Shown in pieces: positions 3,266-9,719 of a stretch of 11,733 bases of DNA. Every line of letters starts with the position of its first letter. Position 1 is the stretch's first letter. The DNA comes from a virus (Duplodnaviria > Heunggongvirae > Uroviricota > Caudoviricetes), in IMG/VR virus record IMGVR_UViG_2671180643_000016, positions 1 to 11,733 of that record. One strand, written 5' to 3'. A program made the position numbers and the translations under genes. The notes below the pieces were generated by a model that was not told where the DNA came from, made no database searches, and worked only from the letters and a program-made list of their open reading frames with translations.

Positions 3266-4207
3266 TTACATAGATGTTTCGTTTAATTCTTCCCGACGAA
3301 CGCTGTAAACGTCGGTGGCTTTTGCCAGCAGTTCGTCATCATCTGAAAGTTTTTGTGCAATGTATTTGTAAGCCTTATCCAGTTCGGAGACAGTGCTGTA
3401 ATTCATCGCTGCGCTGGTAAAGGCCATCAGCATTTCTTCTGGATCACGGCTATCCGCTTTACGCGTTTGCTCATCAGGCTTTTTCACTGTTTTAGCGTTG
3501 ATCAGACTATTCATTCCCGCAGCCGTAGTTGTTTGCGGAGTAATGTCTCGCTCAACGCGCGGTGCCGTTTCCTGTAATTCGTCAGGTGTATAGACGCCCA
3601 TGATTACGTCAGGACAGTGCAAGCGAGACCAGCGTTTTGTCGCAAGGTATGCGAGTTGTTGTTTCGGATCGCTGGCCCAAAGTGTGGAGTTTCTTACCTG
3701 TGCCTGAGACAGCATTAACTCGAGCACTCGAGGTTGATCCTCTCCCTTCATGGTTGCCCATACGCGAACACCGCAGCCTTCTTCGTCTTTTATAGTCCAG
3801 CCTGGTGCGATATACGGATTGCCGTTTTTGGATGTTTTCTCAACAAACTTACCGATCACGCGTTCCCACGGCCCGAACCACTCGTAGTTGATGCGATCTT
3901 TTGTTGGCGACATTGTTGAGATAACTGCGTTTACTAATTGGGCTTCATAACCTAGCGTGCCGTTCACAACATGGGTTTTCTGAGCCACGGCAAACGGGTT
4001 CATTCCCCACTGCGCAGCCTGCATTGCCACGGCCATGCAATCAGCTGGTTTCCCGGCGAGGTGCGCCGGTACCGTTACGCGGCTTTGCGCCATTACCTCG
4101 GCGAATTTCATCAGTTGGTTCAAGCCGTCTGGGCTGAAAATAGTTGCAGCAGTGCCAGCGATTGCTGTGTCTACTGGTGCGTTGATGTTTGCGATGTTGT
4201 TGCTCAT
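3266..4207 (-). CDS. bet: Single-strand annealing protein, Red-beta/Bet-like (RecT/Red-beta superfamily)
   Basis: 313-aa ORF. Several segments resemble lambda Bet as I recall it (QWGMNPF vs QYGLNPW; LWASDPKQQL vs PWQSHPKRML; shared ERDITP). Start ATG overlaps the exonuclease stop (ATGA at 4204-4207); SD AGGA upstream. Confidence 0.75.
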   Translation of the reverse strand: MSNNIANINAPVDTAIAGTAATIFSPDGLNQLMKFAEVMAQSRVTVPAHLAGKPADCMAVAMQAAQWGMNPFAVAQKTHVVNGTLGYEAQLVNAVISTMSPTKDRINYEWFGPWERVIGKFVEKTSKNGNPYIAPGWTIKDEEGCGVRVWATMKGEDQPRVLELMLSQAQVRNSTLWASDPKQQLAYLATKRWSRLHCPDVIMGVYTPDELQETAPRVERDITPQTTTAAGMNSLINAKTVKKPDEQTRKADSRDPEEMLMAFTSAAMNYSTVSELDKAYKYIAQKLSDDDELLAKATDVYSVRREELNETSM

Positions 4208-5025
4208 ATGTACATATCCTGTTTACGTGCCCAGTCAGGGCGTTTAATAATTTCCACGCCACCCCATTCATCATTGATGCGGCATTCGTGATAGGTATTC
4301 AGATCCCGGCGGAACAGAGCGTGCCCGGTATCGACATCCTTCGCATCCAGCTCGAACACGCGTACCGGATACCGACCACAATCAATGCTTTCGCTCACGG
4401 CAAGAAAGAAAAAACCATGCGGCTGACCAGTAACCCTCATTGCGCCTTCACGGTACATTGCGTCCTGCACGTGGTAGCGGAATTCCTCGATGTGGCGAGC
4501 AAAACGATCCATATCTGCAACCTTTTTCACGTCGACGATTACGTTGTGCTCGTTCAGCCATTTGTCTGGACGAATTCGGCACAACTCACCCGTCTCTTCA
4601 TCGTTCCAGTACATTGATGCTTCGCAGTAACCAGGTGCTTCCAGCATCCAGCGTGCCGCCGGGTGAGCCATTGCGCTATCACGCATCAGCTCCAGTTTTC
4701 GCCACTGCTCTGCATCAAGTACCGAAATCCCCATATCCGCTACATCACGAATAAATGCCTCTTCGTCAGCTTTACCTTGTTTTGTCCGACGATCGAATTT
4801 CGGTGAAACGATGAAGCGTTTGTCAAACTCTCTAGGTTCCAGAAGCAGACAGTGCAGAGCAGTACCCATATCCAGTGCAGACTTATTCTCTTCGTCTTCC
4901 GGAGCGGCCTTCACCCATTTCAGAAGGGCAGGGTTCTTAGCCACCATATCTAGCTGCGACTTACTCACGCCGTCACCGGCGTGGTAGTCCTCGTTGCTGA
5001 TATCGAAATAAATTCCCGGATTCAT
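4204..5025 (-). CDS. RecE-like exonuclease (PD-(D/E)XK fold), partner of the annealase
   Basis: 273-aa ORF with a GIYFDISNEDYH N-terminal signature, a D-x-K core (VIVDVKKV) followed by FRYHVQDAMYREG and a C-terminal YHEC, consistent with the RecE C-terminal nuclease-domain family. Start overlaps the upstream stop (ATGA at 5022-5025). Confidence 0.75.
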   Translation of the reverse strand: MNPGIYFDISNEDYHAGDGVSKSQLDMVAKNPALLKWVKAAPEDEENKSALDMGTALHCLLLEPREFDKRFIVSPKFDRRTKQGKADEEAFIRDVADMGISVLDAEQWRKLELMRDSAMAHPAARWMLEAPGYCEASMYWNDEETGELCRIRPDKWLNEHNVIVDVKKVADMDRFARHIEEFRYHVQDAMYREGAMRVTGQPHGFFFLAVSESIDCGRYPVRVFELDAKDVDTGHALFRRDLNTYHECRINDEWGGVEIIKRPDWARKQDMYI

Positions 5026-6965: not shown

Positions 6966-7781
6966 ATGAGCAGACATGCAACAGATTGGGCTTGGGAGAC
7001 AGATCCAGGCAGCTCATCATTAAAGCTCATACTGCTCTCGATGGCTGACAGAGCCGATGAATATAACCTCTGCTACCCCAGCATAGAACGCCTCGTTAAA
7101 GACACTTGCCTGAATAAAAAAACCGTGCAGGCCGGGCTTATATCGCTCATGAAAATGGGGCTTATTTCAGATACCGGAGAGAGAAAGGGAGCGACAAAAA
7201 GAGTGCGGGTTTTCTCTCTTAATATAACCAAAAACGGGAACATTAAAGGCAACCTAGATGGGTGTAATGAACCCGAAAACGGTAATGTTCCCGAAAACGG
7301 GAATATACCCAAAAACGGGATGTTGAATGATCCCAAAAACGGGATGTTGAATGATCCCAAAAACGGGATCCAGAACCAGTCATATAACCAGTCATTTAAC
7401 CAAGAGAGGGAGAGCAGGACAAAAACCGGGGATTCTGTGCCTCATGACCCCGGCGCAAACAACGCCGTGATGAATAACTTTGTTCCTCCTGGTGGGCCAG
7501 GGCAATTAGGCAAATTTGTCATGCATGAACAATGGCAGCCATCAGATGACTTTCTTCGGAAAAGCTCATTGCAGGGGATCTACCTGGACAGTCTGCCAAC
7601 GGCACAGGAACTTGCAGAGTTCAGAATTTACTGGATGGCTGAGGGTAAGGCATACCATCAGGCACAGTGGGAGCAGAAGCTGGCAAGGCGGCTGCAGATT
7701 AGCAGACAGAAGCAATCAACATTACCTGATAACAACGTTCCGCACTGGAACAGCCCTGAAGCATGGGAGGATTTCTTGTGA
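6966..7781 (+). CDS. Replication initiation protein (lambda O functional analogue; N-terminal winged-helix-like, C-terminal DnaT-like)
   Basis: 271-aa ORF. N-terminal HTH-like region (LKLILLSMADRADEYNLCYPSIERLVKDTCLNKKTVQAGLISLMKMGLI), repetitive linker encoded by the iterons, C-terminal FRIYWMAEGKAYHQAQWEQKLARRL. Immediately upstream of the P-like gene with overlapping stop/start. Confidence 0.75.
   Translation: MSRHATDWAWETDPGSSSLKLILLSMADRADEYNLCYPSIERLVKDTCLNKKTVQAGLISLMKMGLISDTGERKGATKRVRVFSLNITKNGNIKGNLDGCNEPENGNVPENGNIPKNGMLNDPKNGMLNDPKNGIQNQSYNQSFNQERESRTKTGDSVPHDPGANNAVMNNFVPPGGPGQLGKFVMHEQWQPSDDFLRKSSLQGIYLDSLPTAQELAEFRIYWMAEGKAYHQAQWEQKLARRLQISRQKQSTLPDNNVPHWNSPEAWEDFL
7227..7369. 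repeat. Iteron array inside the replication initiator gene (putative ori)
   Basis: Direct repeats with core CC(C)(A/G)AAAACGG(G/T)A at 7227-7241, 7271-7286, 7289-7304, 7307-7321, 7331-7345, 7355-7369, spaced 18, 18, 24 and 24 bp. Includes an exact 24-bp tandem duplication GATGTTGAATGATCCCAAAAACGG (7319-7342 and 7343-7366). Confidence 0.6.
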
Positions 7782-8563
7782 ACAACGTTTTTACCGCGAT
7801 ACAAAACCGTGACGGAGAAGCCCTTTCTCGCATGTCAGGTTATGATCATCAGTACGTCAACAATGACAATGTGGTGAACATGTCAGCAGAGAGGCTTGTT
7901 GATGCCCTTTTCAAACAGCTGAAACAACTGTTTCCGGCGGCAGTGGTAACCAACCTGAAGACGCCAGAGCAGGAAGTCGCTGCAAAACAGCAGTGGATTG
8001 CTGCGTTTGCCGAAGGGGGGATCCGAACCCGTGAACAGGTTTCTGCTGGTATGCGCCACGCCCGCGCCAGTGAATCTCCGTTCTGGCCGTCGCCAGGGCA
8101 ATTTATCAAGTGGTGCAAAGACAGCAAGATGGTTCTTGGCGTCACCATTGACGATGTGATGGCGGAGTTTCACCGGTACAGCAAGGAAAAAAGTTTATAT
8201 CCTGGTGGTCCCGAAAGATTCCCGTGGCGGCATCCGGTTATGTACTGGGTCGTATGTGATACCCGCCGTGCAATGTATCAGCGCCAGCTTAGCGAGATTG
8301 AGGTTGAGAAACACGCGCGCAGGTTGCTCGATGATTGGGCGAAAAAGGTGGCTTCCGGACAGCAGATACCCGATCCGGTGATCAGCATACAGGCAAAGCC
8401 AGAACCCATGAGTACACCTCCGGACACAGGGAGAGACGTTTACCATCCACCAGGGCGAAGTTTCGGGTGCATGCCTAACGCCGCCACCCTGGGGGGAATA
8501 ACACCTGCGCAGTGGCTGATGGAGGAATACAGGCGAGGAAAGGCAGCAGGATTTATCAAGTAA
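7778..8563 (+). CDS. P: Replication protein P-like (DnaB helicase loader)
   Basis: Clear resemblance to lambda P as I recall it (QQWIAAFAEGGIRTREQVSAGMRHARASESPFWPSPGQFIKWC vs lambda RQWVLAFRENGITTMEQVNAGMRVARRQNRPFLPSPGQFVAWC). Preferred start GTG 7778 with SD GGGAGG 8 nt upstream, overlapping the upstream stop (GTGA); alternative ATG 7763 lacks an SD. Confidence 0.85.
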   Translation: MNNVFTAIQNRDGEALSRMSGYDHQYVNNDNVVNMSAERLVDALFKQLKQLFPAAVVTNLKTPEQEVAAKQQWIAAFAEGGIRTREQVSAGMRHARASESPFWPSPGQFIKWCKDSKMVLGVTIDDVMAEFHRYSKEKSLYPGGPERFPWRHPVMYWVVCDTRRAMYQRQLSEIEVEKHARRLLDDWAKKVASGQQIPDPVISIQAKPEPMSTPPDTGRDVYHPPGRSFGCMPNAATLGGITPAQWLMEEYRRGKAAGFIK

Positions 8564-8599
8564 TACCAGCGCGATAGCGCATTTTTTTACGTCTATATG

Positions 8600-8678
8600 A
8601 TTACCTTATAGGTAATAAAATATTCTAATTTCTATTGATTTTATGTCTTATGTGGTTTTTAATTACCTAAGGGGTAAA
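8600..8678 (+). promoter_or_regulatory. Operator-flanked promoter upstream of the DUF1064-like gene (same architecture as pL)
   Basis: ATTACCTTATAGGTAAT (8600-8616; perfect palindrome) and ATTACCTAAGGGGTAAA (8662-8678) flank -35 TTGATT (8635-8640), 17-bp spacer, -10 TTTAAT (8658-8663). Operator centres are 62 bp apart, as at pL. Confidence 0.55.
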
Positions 8679-8680
8679 TC

Positions 8681-9025: not shown

Positions 9026-9086
9026 ATCGACGATCTTTTTAGTTATCAATGTAATCAATAAGTTATGTGGATAAGCGAGGGTAAAG

Positions 9087-9719
9087 ATGGAAAGTAATAT
9101 CAAAGGGTTAGTTGCCGCCGGGCATGAGATGGCTTCGGAACTGAAAGCAGAATGTGGTGCCGTTGATATGCGCAGTGTGGCAAAGCTGATCAGCGATTTG
9201 GCAACGCAACTGGAAGTGCAACTGGTGCGTGCTAATGCGCTGGCCGAAGACCACCAGAGAGCGATTGAGTCAATTAAGCAGGCTGATTCGGCTGTTAAGT
9301 TGGCACACGAGAAGTTTTCGGCGCTGGCGGCGGAGAATGCGGGGCTGAAACACGCAATGGCCGTAACTCTTGAGCATGTGTCGGTCACGGATGCAGGGCA
9401 GGCTGGTGTTGCTGCAATGATTATCAACGATGCCCTGCACCACAGCGAAACTCCAGCCACCGATGCTTTCCTGGCTGAAATTCGTGCGGAAGCACGCAAC
9501 GAGGGGATTAACTATACCGCAAGCCGTCTTGCTGCTGCTTTCAATCACGGATTTATCAATAAGTCTTTACGTGAAGTTTTCGACGTTACACGCATGATTC
9601 TGTCAGCAAAAGAAGAGTTAGCTAATGAATCGCATCCGATTGATGGCCTGTCCGGTGAATATGCAGAGAAATCCCTTGAAGAATGGGCGGAACGGCTTCG
9701 CAAAGGAGGCAGCCAGTGA
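9087..9719 (+). CDS. Hypothetical protein (210 aa), Ala/Leu/Glu-rich, predicted helical
   Basis: SD GAGGG 7 nt upstream of ATG 9087; stop TGA overlaps the GTG start of the downstream methyltransferase. No recognisable catalytic motifs. Confidence 0.55.
   Translation: MESNIKGLVAAGHEMASELKAECGAVDMRSVAKLISDLATQLEVQLVRANALAEDHQRAIESIKQADSAVKLAHEKFSALAAENAGLKHAMAVTLEHVSVTDAGQAGVAAMIINDALHHSETPATDAFLAEIRAEARNEGINYTASRLAAAFNHGFINKSLREVFDVTRMILSAKEELANESHPIDGLSGEYAEKSLEEWAERLRKGGSQ

What the first reader, a model, noticed from the sequence alone, without database searches (positions are those of the whole stretch)
7227..7369. Iteron array and exact 24-bp tandem duplication inside the replication initiator gene (putative ori)
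Six direct repeats of a CCC(A/G)AAAACGGGA(A/T)-type core lie in the central linker-coding part of the O-like gene, with regular 18- and 24-bp phasing and a perfect 24-bp tandem duplication (7319-7342 and 7343-7366, encoding NGMLNDPK twice). This mirrors lambda, where ori iterons lie inside O. The repeat number may vary between related prophages.
Basis: partly seen in the sequence, partly recalled or inferred. Interest (0 to 1): 0.5.

Follow-up and report, generated by a model that had tools for sequence, protein, structure and literature searches.

The report
Phage replication origin inside initiator gene
The repeats are real and are most likely the binding sites that mark the replication origin of a phiV10-like E. 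coli prophage, embedded in the gene of the protein that binds them, a known design (phage lambda) seen here in a different, very large and mis-annotated initiator family.

Summary
Observation confirmed. Six CC(A/G)AAAACGG cores lie at 7225-7369 with spacings of 45, 18, 18, 24 and 24 bp, including an exact 24-bp tandem. They sit in the linker of gene 6966-7781, between an N-terminal winged helix (Pfam HTH_36) and a DnaT-like C-domain. A lambda-P homologue follows.

The window is a phiV10-type prophage beside guaA in E. coli 2013C-4538. Copy number varies from 4 to 11 among close relatives, and this window has the modal form.

Three results point to selection on the DNA rather than the peptide:
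- In 22 diverse homologous genes the same word is read in all three frames (PxNG, TQKR, PKT).
- Most sites have dyad symmetry.
- Distant N-domains carry different palindromes at the same place.

Edwardsiella phage GF-2 is a natural hybrid. This N-domain and array replace lambda's N-domain, iterons and AT-rich tract, in front of a lambda-O C-half.

It is a set of tandem 12/13-mers, (C)AGAAYCWRYCA, found in 23 of 29 diverse loci.

The gene is not Pfam Phage_rep_O, and there is no lambda-grade AT tract. Verdict: new member of a known kind, modest interest.

The parts
6966..7781 (+). Replication initiator gene (271 aa): N-terminal winged helix, repeat-encoded linker, DnaT-like C-terminal domain
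   Evidence: Pfam HTH_36 1.8e-10 (aa 18-67) and DnaT 1.1e-15 (aa 184-252). phrog_1032 'replication initiation protein' 2.5e-108. RefSeq annotates it as WP_032277123.1, 'DnaT-like ssDNA-binding domain-containing protein'.
6966..7226 (+). Coding region of the N-terminal winged-helix domain (aa 1-87), the presumed iteron-binding domain
   Evidence: AlphaFold2 mean pLDDT 87 with a helix-helix-helix-helix-strand-strand (H-H-H-H-E-E) winged-helix layout. Nearest solved folds are DNA-binding winged-helix regulators (MarR, Fur/PerR, ArsR-type) at E about 3e-3 to 3e-2. 3704 homologous clusters carry it, and among the 150 best-scoring representatives it nearly always sits at the N-terminus.
7225..7240 (+). 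Iteron 1: TAACCAAAAACGGGAA (degenerate left arm)
7270..7285 (+). Iteron 2: AACCCGAAAACGGTAA (degenerate right arm)
7288..7303 (+). Iteron 3: TTCCCGAAAACGGGAA, a perfect dyad (6-bp arms, AAAA centre)
7306..7321 (+). Iteron 4: TACCCAAAAACGGGAT
7330..7345 (+). Iteron 5: ATCCCAAAAACGGGAT (5-bp arms ATCCC/GGGAT), in the first full 24-bp unit
7354..7369 (+). Iteron 6: ATCCCAAAAACGGGAT, in the second 24-bp unit
7371..7405 (+). Second repeat class: CAG AACCAGTCATAT AACCAGTCATTT AACCAAGA (12-bp tandem). Candidate unwinding or helicase-entry element, in the place of lambda's AT-rich tract.
   Evidence: TRF period 12 x2.4. Homologous (C)AGAAYCWRYCA units of period 12-13 directly follow the array in 23 of 29 diverse loci and are read in different frames. 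51 paired units inside initiator genes against 4 in ten-fold more control DNA. Collinear with lambda's AT-rich tract.
7402..7425 (+). Purine-rich tract AAGAGAGGGAGAGCAGGACAAAAA (strand asymmetry as on the right of the lambda iterons)
   Evidence: Sequence. AT skew +0.56 and GC skew +0.36 at 7400-7439. Lambda comparison. Role inferred only.
7426..7453 (.). Inverted repeat CCGGGG-N16-CCCCGG, at the place where lambda and GF-2 carry the GAGAATTCTGGCGAATCCTC palindrome
   Evidence: Sequence and alignment A5. Not conserved in Superficieibacter. Weak.
7515..7721 (+). Coding region of the DnaT-like C-terminal domain (aa 184-252)
   Evidence: Pfam PF17948 1.1e-15. PDB DnaT chains 4ou6, 6aep and 9zbt at E 4e-20 to 6e-21.
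7778..8563 (+). Lambda-P family helicase-loader gene. Its GTG start overlaps the initiator stop (GTGA).
   Evidence: Pfam Phage_lambda_P 1.5e-56. RefSeq coordinates. Sequence.

Best explanation
The segment 7225-7405 is the replication origin, or at least its initiator-binding core, of a phiV10-type temperate phage. It is embedded in the gene of its own initiator.

Proposed mechanism:
1. Early rightward transcription makes the initiator (6966-7781) and a lambda-P-like helicase loader (7778-8563).
2. The initiator's N-terminal winged-helix domain binds, probably as dimers, to six dyad-symmetric, A-tract-centred 14-16-bp iterons of the type (A/T)TCCC(A/G)AAAACGGGA(A/T). This builds an O-some-like nucleoprotein complex.
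3. The adjacent 12-mer repeats and purine-rich tract (7371-7425) are then destabilised.
4. The DnaT-like C-terminal domain (DnaT is an ssDNA-binding protein) and the P homologue bring host DnaB onto the opened DNA.

Shown here: the anatomy, the homologies, the DNA-level conservation, and the co-inheritance of N-domain, iterons and 12-mers. Inferred: binding, unwinding, helicase loading and origin activity.

Slippage between the 18- and 24-bp units changes iteron number in steps that keep the reading frame. This lengthens or shortens a tolerant protein linker.
For: **The repeats are real and non-random.**

**Gene identity.** Replication initiation protein (phrog_1032, 2.5e-108), followed by a lambda-P homologue, in the early right operon of a phiV10-like prophage.

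**DNA-level conservation.**
- In 22 diverse homologous genes, 70 copies of CC[AG]AAAACGG are read in three frames (56, 9 and 5 copies).
- V. salinus carries three consecutive copies in three different frames.
- 103 of 123 representative proteins of the family carry at least two peptide traces of the word, counted over the three frames; 42 show the TQKR frame and 28 the PKT frame.
- The word occurs 70 times in 25.7 kb of initiator genes, against 2 times in 262 kb of control DNA.

**Dyad symmetry.** Examples are TTCCCGAAAACGGGAA and ATCCCAAAAACGGGAT. All four CCCN6GGG sites in the window lie in the array. Dyad density is 11.9 per kb in array regions against 6.6 per kb elsewhere.

**Covariation.** More distant N-domains carry different palindromes at the same position: GTACCAAYATTGGTAC, GTCGGAAAAATCCGAC, GTGCCAAAAGTGGCAC and CCCCCGAAATTGGGGG.

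**Modularity.**
- The GF-2 initiator has this N-domain and array joined to a C-half 62% identical to lambda O aa 156-299.
- The array and 12-mers align with lambda's iterons and AT-rich tract.
- Other relatives pair the module with DnaB-type helicases.
- Epsilon15-like Salmonella phages share only the C-half.

**N-domain fold.** It folds as a winged helix, like DNA-binding regulators of the MarR, Fur and ArsR types.

**Relaxed protein constraint in the linker.** 11 of 14 polymorphic sites in the array change the amino acid, against 3 of 21 in the N-domain.

**Literature precedent.** Lambda O, P22 gp18 and phage L gp18 each carry their own iterons inside their coding regions (PMC8022706). Iteron number also differs between lambda (4) and Stx phages (6), adding 13 residues to O (PMC7466680).
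Against: - There is no experimental evidence for binding or origin activity in this family. None was found in the searchable literature.
- There is no lambda-grade AT-rich tract next to the array. The lowest 40-bp GC values are 32.5% upstream (7220-7259) and 37.5% downstream. More AT-rich intergenic DNA lies at 8564-8680 (26-27% GC).
- Within-lineage polymorphism does not distinguish cores from spacers (Fisher p=0.41). The identity of the 24-bp units could partly reflect recent slippage or concerted evolution.
- Dyad symmetry is weak in some relatives. For example, Vibrio phage Her has only CCG/CGG arms.
- CCCN6GGG alone is not significant in the window (19 of 200 shuffles reach 4 or more).
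Confidence: 0.8

Rival explanations
1. The repeats are genuine initiator-binding sites but are not the origin. They would serve autoregulation, titration, copy control or exclusion, while unwinding and helicase loading occur elsewhere. Candidate alternative sites are the AT-rich intergenic region 8564-8680 and the DnaA-box/IHF cluster at 9053-9110.
For: - The most AT-rich DNA near the replication genes is 8564-8680 (26-27% GC). It holds two related palindromes.
- A perfect DnaA box with adjacent IHF-consensus matches lies at 9053-9110.
- The array region itself is only moderately AT-rich.
Against: - One DnaA box and two IHF matches are within chance expectation for the window.
- The array and 12-mers are the feature that travels with the N-domain across phages of different genera, and they occupy exactly the lambda ori position.
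- In lambda, and by inference in P22 and L, such intragenic iterons are the origin (PMC7466680, PMC8022706).
- Whether the intergenic features travel with distant homologues was not examined here. Their presence in close relatives is uninformative because the DNA is about 97% identical.
Confidence: 0.1
2. The repeats are only slippage-prone coding repeats for a disordered Asn/Gly/Pro-rich linker and have no function as DNA.
For: - Units are multiples of 3 bp in this lineage, and copy number varies freely.
- The linker tolerates amino-acid changes.
- Perfect identity of the 24-bp units fits recent duplication.
Against: - The same DNA word is conserved in three reading frames, giving unrelated peptides (PKNG, TQKR, PKT), across genera.
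- The sites are palindromic, which is a DNA property.
- A disordered linker would be expected to be the least conserved part of the gene. Here the word persists between E. coli, Vibrio, Proteus and Desulfovibrio elements whose N-domains are only about 54-64% identical to the query alignment.
Confidence: 0.06
3. The repeats are binding sites for a different protein, either a host factor or another phage regulator, and not for the initiator.
For: - No binding data exist.
- The neighbouring 12/13-mer element is conserved independently of N-domain divergence, so some other factor may act in this region.
Against: - Site sequence changes as the N-domain diverges, while the position directly after that domain stays fixed.
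- The sites match neither the DnaA-box nor the IHF consensus.
- Neighbouring genes differ among the loci, whereas the N-domain is the constant partner.
Confidence: 0.04

Closest known systems
Phage lambda ori (four iterons plus AT-rich tract inside gene O; O/P-dependent DnaB loading), and the Stx-phage variants with six iterons
   Same: - Direct repeats at 18-24-bp spacing lie in the middle of the initiator gene, between the DNA-binding and partner-binding halves.
- Each repeat is a dyad with an A-tract centre and TCCC...GGGA arms (lambda ATCCCTCAAAACGAGGGA, window ATCCCAAAAACGGGAT).
- The next gene belongs to the P family.
- Iteron number differs between relatives and changes the protein length (PMC7466680).
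- The N-domain hits PHROG profiles 678 and 345 over the same columns as the lambda O N-domain.
   Different: - The initiator is not Pfam Phage_rep_O and shows no significant BLASTP match to O.
- There are 6 bp, not 9, between TCCC and GGGA.
- The C-terminal domain is DnaT-like, not O-like.
- The roughly 80% AT tract is replaced by conserved 12/13-mer repeats of about 60-65% AT.
P22 gene 18 and phage L gene 18 (lambdoid initiators with their own intragenic repeats, inferred origins)
   Same: The inference is the same. Distantly related ori-binding proteins each carry distinct iterons in their own coding regions. L has six imprecise 11-bp repeats that its authors call 'likely the origin' (PMC8022706).
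   Different: - The repeat sequences differ.
- Their partner is a DnaB-type helicase (gp12), not P.
- Whether gp18 of L or P22 belongs to the HTH_36 family was not tested here.
Iteron origins of plasmids (RK2 TrfA, F RepE, pPS10 RepA), which have 13-mer repeats in the unwinding element
   Same: - A winged-helix initiator binds arrays of direct repeats next to an unwinding element.
- That unwinding element itself contains short tandem repeats, and Rep proteins contact them as ssDNA in a sequence-specific way (PMC4081077, abstract seen).
- This is a possible analogue of the 12/13-mers at 7371-7405.
   Different: - Plasmid iterons lie outside the rep gene and usually work with DnaA boxes. None lies near this array.
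- Plasmid Rep proteins have two winged-helix domains. This initiator has one, plus a DnaT-like domain.
E. coli DnaT (primosomal protein I), the name under which this gene is annotated
   Same: The C-terminal 70-85 residues are homologous to the DnaT C-terminal domain (E about 1e-20 to PDB 4ou6, 6aep and 9zbt).
   Different: The N-terminal winged helix, the intragenic iterons, the P-family neighbour and the prophage context mark it as a phage origin-binding initiator, not a restart primosome protein. The public names 'primosomal protein' and 'DnaT-like' describe only one domain.

Membership tests
Lambda-type phage origin embedded in the initiator gene (ori-lambda design) | Array of at least 3-4 direct repeats at about 18-24-bp spacing inside the initiator ORF, between the N-terminal DNA-binding part and the C-terminal part | tested here: met
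   Six copies at 7225-7369 with spacings of 45, 18, 18, 24 and 24 bp, lying between HTH_36 (aa 18-67) and DnaT (aa 184-252).
Lambda-type phage origin embedded in the initiator gene (ori-lambda design) | Each iteron has internal dyad symmetry and an A-tract centre | tested here: met
   Four of six sites are CCC-N6-GGG with an A4-5 centre. One is a perfect 6+6 dyad. Compared with the annotated lambda iterons.
Lambda-type phage origin embedded in the initiator gene (ori-lambda design) | Strongly AT-rich tract of about 40 bp immediately to the right of the last iteron | tested here: not met
   Downstream 40-bp windows reach only 37.5% GC. A conserved 12/13-mer repeat and a purine-rich tract stand in that place.
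Lambda-type phage origin embedded in the initiator gene (ori-lambda design) | Initiator belongs to the lambda O family (Pfam PF04492, Phage_rep_O) | tested here: not met
   The window N-domain gives no PF04492 hit even at E<=1. BLASTP against lambda O gives E=0.07 over 17 residues. The only link is shared PHROG profiles 678 and 345.
Lambda-type phage origin embedded in the initiator gene (ori-lambda design) | Downstream partner gene of the lambda P family (DnaB loader) | tested here: met
   PF06992 at 1.5e-56 for 7763/7778-8563. RefSeq names it 'replication protein P'.
Lambda-type phage origin embedded in the initiator gene (ori-lambda design) | Iteron specificity resides in the N-terminal half and is exchangeable as a module with its iterons | tested here: met
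   GF-2 is a natural hybrid. The same N-domain and array pair with DnaT-like, lambda-O-like or other C-halves, and with P or DnaB partners. This is comparative evidence, not genetic.
Lambda-type phage origin embedded in the initiator gene (ori-lambda design) | Initiator binds the iterons, and the fragment supports initiator-dependent replication | not testable with these tools
   Needs gel shift or footprinting, and a plasmid replication assay.
Plasmid-type iteron origin (Rep, iterons, DnaA box, unwinding-element 13-mers) | DnaA box or boxes adjacent to the iterons | tested here: not met
   The only TTWTNCACA match in the window is at 9066-9074, 1.7 kb away and at chance level.
Plasmid-type iteron origin (Rep, iterons, DnaA box, unwinding-element 13-mers) | Short tandem repeats (about 13-mers) in the unwinding element beside the iterons | tested here: inconclusive
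   Tandem 12/13-mers are present and conserved. Whether they form the unwinding element is unknown.
Protein-level tandem repeat or low-complexity linker only | Conservation at the peptide level in one reading frame, with free synonymous variation | tested here: not met
   The same DNA word is read in three frames, giving PKNG, TQKR and PKT. The 12/13-mers are read as NQS, EPV or ES(I/T).
DnaT (primosomal protein I) orthologue | Full-length DnaT architecture in a chromosomal dnaT-dnaC context | tested here: not met
   Only aa 180-265 match DnaT chains. The N-terminus is HTH_36, and the gene lies in a prophage next to a P homologue.

The most novel reading that the evidence does not exclude
The tandem 12/13-mer (C)AGAAYCWRYCA that follows the iterons may be an undescribed, sequence-specific origin element. 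It could be an unwinding or helicase-entry site, contacted as ssDNA by a conserved surface of the initiator or by a conserved host replisome protein.

It is shared by a large fraction of a family with about 3700 clusters of phage and prophage initiators, from alpha- to gamma- and delta-proteobacteria. It stays nearly constant while the iterons co-evolve with the N-domain. N-domain, iterons and 12/13-mers would then form one portable origin cassette that recombines with different helicase-recruiting C-domains.
Probability: 0.35. Interest if true: 0.6.

Novelty: new member of a known kind. Interest (0 to 1): 0.35.

Why it matters
- **Annotation.** It gives a likely origin for phiV10/Uetakevirus-type prophages, found in about 8% of complete E. 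coli genomes (424 of 5426). It also corrects a widespread label: 'primosomal protein' or 'DnaT-like' for what is an origin-binding initiator.
- **Scope.** The family-level pattern gives a simple rule for locating origins in several thousand phage initiator genes. The rule is an iteron word readable in three frames, followed by a conserved 12/13-mer.
- **Specificity.** It offers a natural data set of matched winged-helix domains and binding sites for studying specificity.
- **Practical uses.** These include vectors and reporter phages based on phiV10, interpreting length polymorphism and frameshift artefacts in this gene, and incompatibility or exclusion between co-resident prophages.

Tried and rejected
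- **Profile search with seven distant N-domains** in viral contigs failed because no block was conserved enough. A three-sequence alignment worked, but it returned only near-identical loci from IMG/VR. The genome-contig scan gave the diverse set.
- **Within-lineage polymorphism test** of cores against spacers. The first attempt was spoiled by one mis-registered sequence. After filtering it had no power (6 of 78 against 8 of 65 variable sites, p=0.41).
- **The search for homologous proteins with the 87-aa domain** returned mostly truncated fragments. With the full protein it returned only close, repeat-expanded E. coli variants. Neither served as a census, so one search was used instead.
- **Literature searches** for phiV10 or epsilon15 origins, HTH_36 with iterons, and the literal motif strings found no prior description of this array. 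The epsilon15 and phiV10 genome papers were not among the papers these searches returned and were not read.
- **RNA readings** were rejected. There is no Rfam family or tRNA. The minus-strand 'terminator-like' hits at 7316-7359 are by-products of adjacent half-sites followed by T5. The ssDNA folding z-score of -2.47 simply reflects the dyads.
- **DnaA-box and IHF consensus** are absent from the array.
- **CCCN6GGG count alone** is not significant in the window.
Full report
**1. What is in the sequence**

The window is a phiV10-like (Uetakevirus, epsilon15-like) prophage integrated beside guaA in E. coli 2013C-4538. It matches NZ_CP027582.1 at 100% identity. The region has an integrase, a recombination module, a CI-like repressor and then a rightward early operon.

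ORF 6966-7781 (271 aa) has a Pfam HTH_36 match at aa 18-67 and a DnaT C-terminal domain at aa 184-252. It matches phrog_1032 'replication initiation protein' at 2.5e-108. The next gene (7778-8563, GTGA stop/start overlap) belongs to the lambda P family at 1.5e-56.

- Six copies of CC(A/G)AAAACGG lie at 7227-7366. Only one other 1-mismatch hit occurs in the window. Chance expectation is 0.41, and 0 of 200 shuffles reach 7.
- Spacings are 45, 18, 18, 24 and 24 bp.
- There is a 24-bp unit x2.6 at 100% identity and an 18-bp unit x3.1.

**2. Variation among close relatives**

The gene is found in 424 of 5426 complete E. coli genomes and in phiV10-type phages. Its length ranges from 792 to 870 bp.

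Laying out nine variants shows that all length differences are gains or losses of the 18-bp or 24-bp unit, giving 5-9 cores. phiV10 itself carries one extra 12-mer.

Among 80 IMG/VR loci with a 99-100% identical N-domain, the window's architecture is the modal one, about 55 of 80 by my sum of the listed rows. The range there is 4-9 cores. One protein cluster has eight 24-bp units, which makes 11 cores.

So the prediction that copy number varies is confirmed, and the exact 24-bp duplication is the common state rather than a private event.

**3. DNA sites or a peptide repeat?**

This is the central question. Close relatives cannot answer it. Among 44 distinct same-length genes, cores are not less polymorphic than spacers (p=0.41). 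The linker is, however, clearly tolerant at the protein level: 11 of 14 variable sites change the residue, against 3 of 21 in the N-domain.

Distant relatives do answer it. tblastn against phages and a scan of one genome per species gave 29 usable initiator genes. Their N-domains are 34-87% identical. The hosts include Edwardsiella, Vibrio, Acinetobacter, Moraxella, Proteus, Providencia, Pseudoalteromonas, Marinobacterium, Wohlfahrtiimonas, Desulfovibrio, Sphingobium, Zoogloeaceae and Methylotenera.

Nearly every one carries an array of short repeats directly after the N-domain, at gene nt about 260-500. In PPompW the array is degenerate and irregularly spaced. Three results point to selection on the DNA:

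a. **Three reading frames.** The word CC[AG]AAAACGG occurs 70 times in 22 of these genes, in all three frames: 56 as PxNG, 9 as TQKR and 5 as PKT. V. salinus has three consecutive copies at 17-bp spacing in three different frames. Among 123 full-length family representatives, 103 carry at least two such peptide traces. The word occurs only twice in 262 kb of flanking and antisense control DNA.

b. **Dyad symmetry.** Most sites are dyads with an A/T-rich centre. Examples are TTCCCGAAAACGGGAA and ATCCCAAAAACGGGAT here, ATCCCAAAATTGGGAT in GF-2 and ACCCAAATTTGGGT in AP22. Dyad density in the array regions is about twice that of the surrounding DNA. Symmetry is weak in some relatives, such as Vibrio phage Her.

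c. **Sequence changes with the N-domain.** Relatives with more diverged N-domains keep the position and the dyad design but change the sequence. Examples are GTACCAAYATTGGTAC (A. calcoaceticus), CCCCCGAAATTGGGGG (Desulfovibrionaceae), GTCGGAAAAATCCGAC (Sphingobium), GTGCCAAAAGTGGCAC (Zoogloeaceae) and GTCGGTAAATGCCGAC (Methylotenera).

This is the pattern expected of binding sites that co-evolve with a dimeric winged-helix domain. The N-domain models confidently as a winged helix (pLDDT 87). Its nearest solved folds are MarR-, Fur- and ArsR-type DNA-binding winged-helix regulators.

**4. Relation to lambda**

The annotated lambda iterons are ATCCCTCAAAACGAGGGA and variants. They are spaced 20, 24 and 23 bp apart and are followed by a purine-rich AT tract.

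The window's sites share the TCCC...A4...GGGA theme, but with 6 rather than 9 bp between the arms.

The initiator is not a Pfam Phage_rep_O protein and has no significant BLASTP match to O. However, its N-domain and that of O hit the same columns of PHROG profiles 678 and 345. I therefore call the relation remote similarity, not membership.

The most telling comparison is Edwardsiella phage GF-2. Its initiator has this N-domain, three perfect 24-bp repeats of ATCCCAAAATTGGGAT and the 12-mer-like units. It then continues into a C-terminal half 62% identical to lambda O aa 156-299 (2e-67), and a P gene follows.

A three-way alignment shows the order iterons, then the AT tract (lambda) or GAAYC..TCA units (GF-2 and the window), then the GAGAATTCTGnCGAATCCTC palindrome (lambda and GF-2). 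The module here thus replaces lambda's N-domain, iterons and AT tract as one block.

Other relatives join the same N-terminal module to different C-halves and to DnaB-type helicases. Epsilon15-like Salmonella phages share only the DnaT-like C-half.

The literature states the general principle explicitly. Lambda O, P22 gp18 and L gp18 each carry their own iterons in their coding regions (PMC8022706). Lambda and Stx phages differ in iteron number, 4 against 6, which adds 13 residues to O (PMC7466680).

**5. The second element**

Directly after the array, 23 of 29 diverse loci carry 2-4 tandem units of consensus (C)AGAAYC-WR-YCA with a period of 12 or 13. In the window this is CAG AACCAGTCATAT AACCAGTCATTT AACCAAGA at 7371-7405.

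With a 13-bp period the same unit is read in two frames within one gene (NQS, then EPV). Other lineages read it as ES(I/T). It is therefore again a DNA-level feature.

It is strongly enriched: 51 paired units in initiator genes against 4 in ten-fold more control DNA. It remains recognisable in the loci whose iterons have diverged most. It matches neither the DnaA-box nor the IHF consensus. It is about 64% AT here, by my count of 7374-7406.

I read it as the positional counterpart of lambda's AT-rich unwinding tract. It may be contacted in a sequence-specific way, as the 13-mers of plasmid origins are by Rep proteins (PMC4081077, abstract seen). This is inference, and it is the most novel part of the picture.

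**6. Mechanism proposed**

1. Early rightward transcription makes the initiator and the P homologue.
2. N-domain dimers occupy the six iterons and bend the DNA.
3. The 12-mer and purine-rich segment (7371-7425) opens.
4. The DnaT-like C-domain helps hold the open complex, and the P homologue delivers host DnaB. The C-domain is homologous to the DnaT C-terminal domain (E about 1e-20 to PDB DnaT chains).
5. Slippage between units changes iteron number in frame-preserving steps.

The anatomy, the homologies and the DNA-level constraint are shown. Binding, opening and helicase loading are inferred.

**7. Rivals**

- **Binding sites used for control, with the true origin elsewhere.** The AT-rich intergenic DNA at 8564-8680 and a DnaA-box/IHF cluster at 9053-9110 exist. 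They are at chance level or were not examined in distant relatives. I give this about 0.1.
- **A pure coding repeat.** This is contradicted by the frame and palindrome evidence. About 0.06.
- **Sites for another protein.** This is contradicted by the change of site sequence with the N-domain. About 0.04.
- **RNA readings.** Excluded.

**8. Novelty and score**

An origin made of iterons inside the initiator gene is a classical design. Inferring it from intragenic repeats is routine in lambdoid phage genomics.

For this particular initiator family I found no prior description in the searchable library, and the phiV10 record carries no origin feature. The family has about 3700 clusters at 50% identity. 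It is publicly named 'primosomal protein', 'DnaT-like' or 'HTH domain protein'. The epsilon15 and phiV10 genome papers were not among the papers these searches returned and were not read.

I class the finding as a new member of a known kind and set interest at 0.35. The three-frame embedding and the conserved 12/13-mer raise it somewhat above a routine annotation.

Noticed in passing
window 9053-9110: A perfect DnaA box TTATCCACA (9066-9074, minus strand) sits immediately beside an IHF-consensus match (9053-9065), with a second IHF match at 9098-9110. The cluster lies in and next to the 9026-9086 gap between the DUF1064 gene and the next ORF. Each motif alone is within chance expectation. The box is conserved in 70 of 79 close relatives, which is uninformative at about 97% DNA identity.
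   Followed up: partly
window 8564-8680: This is the most AT-rich stretch near the replication genes (26-27% GC). It holds the terminator after P and two related imperfect palindromes, ATTACCTTATAGGTAAT (8600-8616) and ATTACCTAAGGGGTAAAT (8662-8679). These look like operators for an unknown regulator, or mark a possible alternative origin location.
   Followed up: no
window 7765-7781: The initiator stop codon and the P-homologue start codon overlap as GTGA (7778-7781), with a GGGAGGA Shine-Dalgarno sequence at 7765-7771. This suggests translational coupling of initiator and helicase loader.
   Followed up: no
L009 (PP488543 'phage BP9', 138 kb Vequintavirus record) and PP350014 'phage PH444' (115 kb): Records of large phages carry this temperate phiV10-type initiator/P module (in BP9 near a record end; in PH444 at 91,284-92,099). 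They are probably chimeric assemblies or prophage contamination.
   Followed up: no
P0005, P0009, P0025, P0032; L111 gene from 2501: Many database proteins of this family are truncated or frameshifted within or just after the repeat region. The Granulosicoccaceae ORF stops inside the 12/13-mer element. The A5 runs and tandem units seem prone to sequencing or assembly errors, or to real frameshifts.
   Followed up: partly
window 7426-7453: An inverted repeat CCGGGG-N16-CCCCGG lies just right of the purine-rich tract, at the position where lambda and GF-2 have the GAGAATTCTGGCGAATCCTC palindrome. It is not conserved in Superficieibacter.
   Followed up: partly
window 7316-7359, minus strand: Two terminator-like hairpin-plus-T5 hits arise from the right half-site of one iteron pairing with the left half-site of the next (GGGAT..ATCCC). 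They are most likely a by-product of the array rather than antisense terminators.
   Followed up: partly
window 4618-4656 and 4178-4201: Weak short tandem repeats (18 bp x2.2 and 12 bp x2.0) lie inside the nuclease and RecT recombination genes on the minus strand. They were not examined.
   Followed up: no
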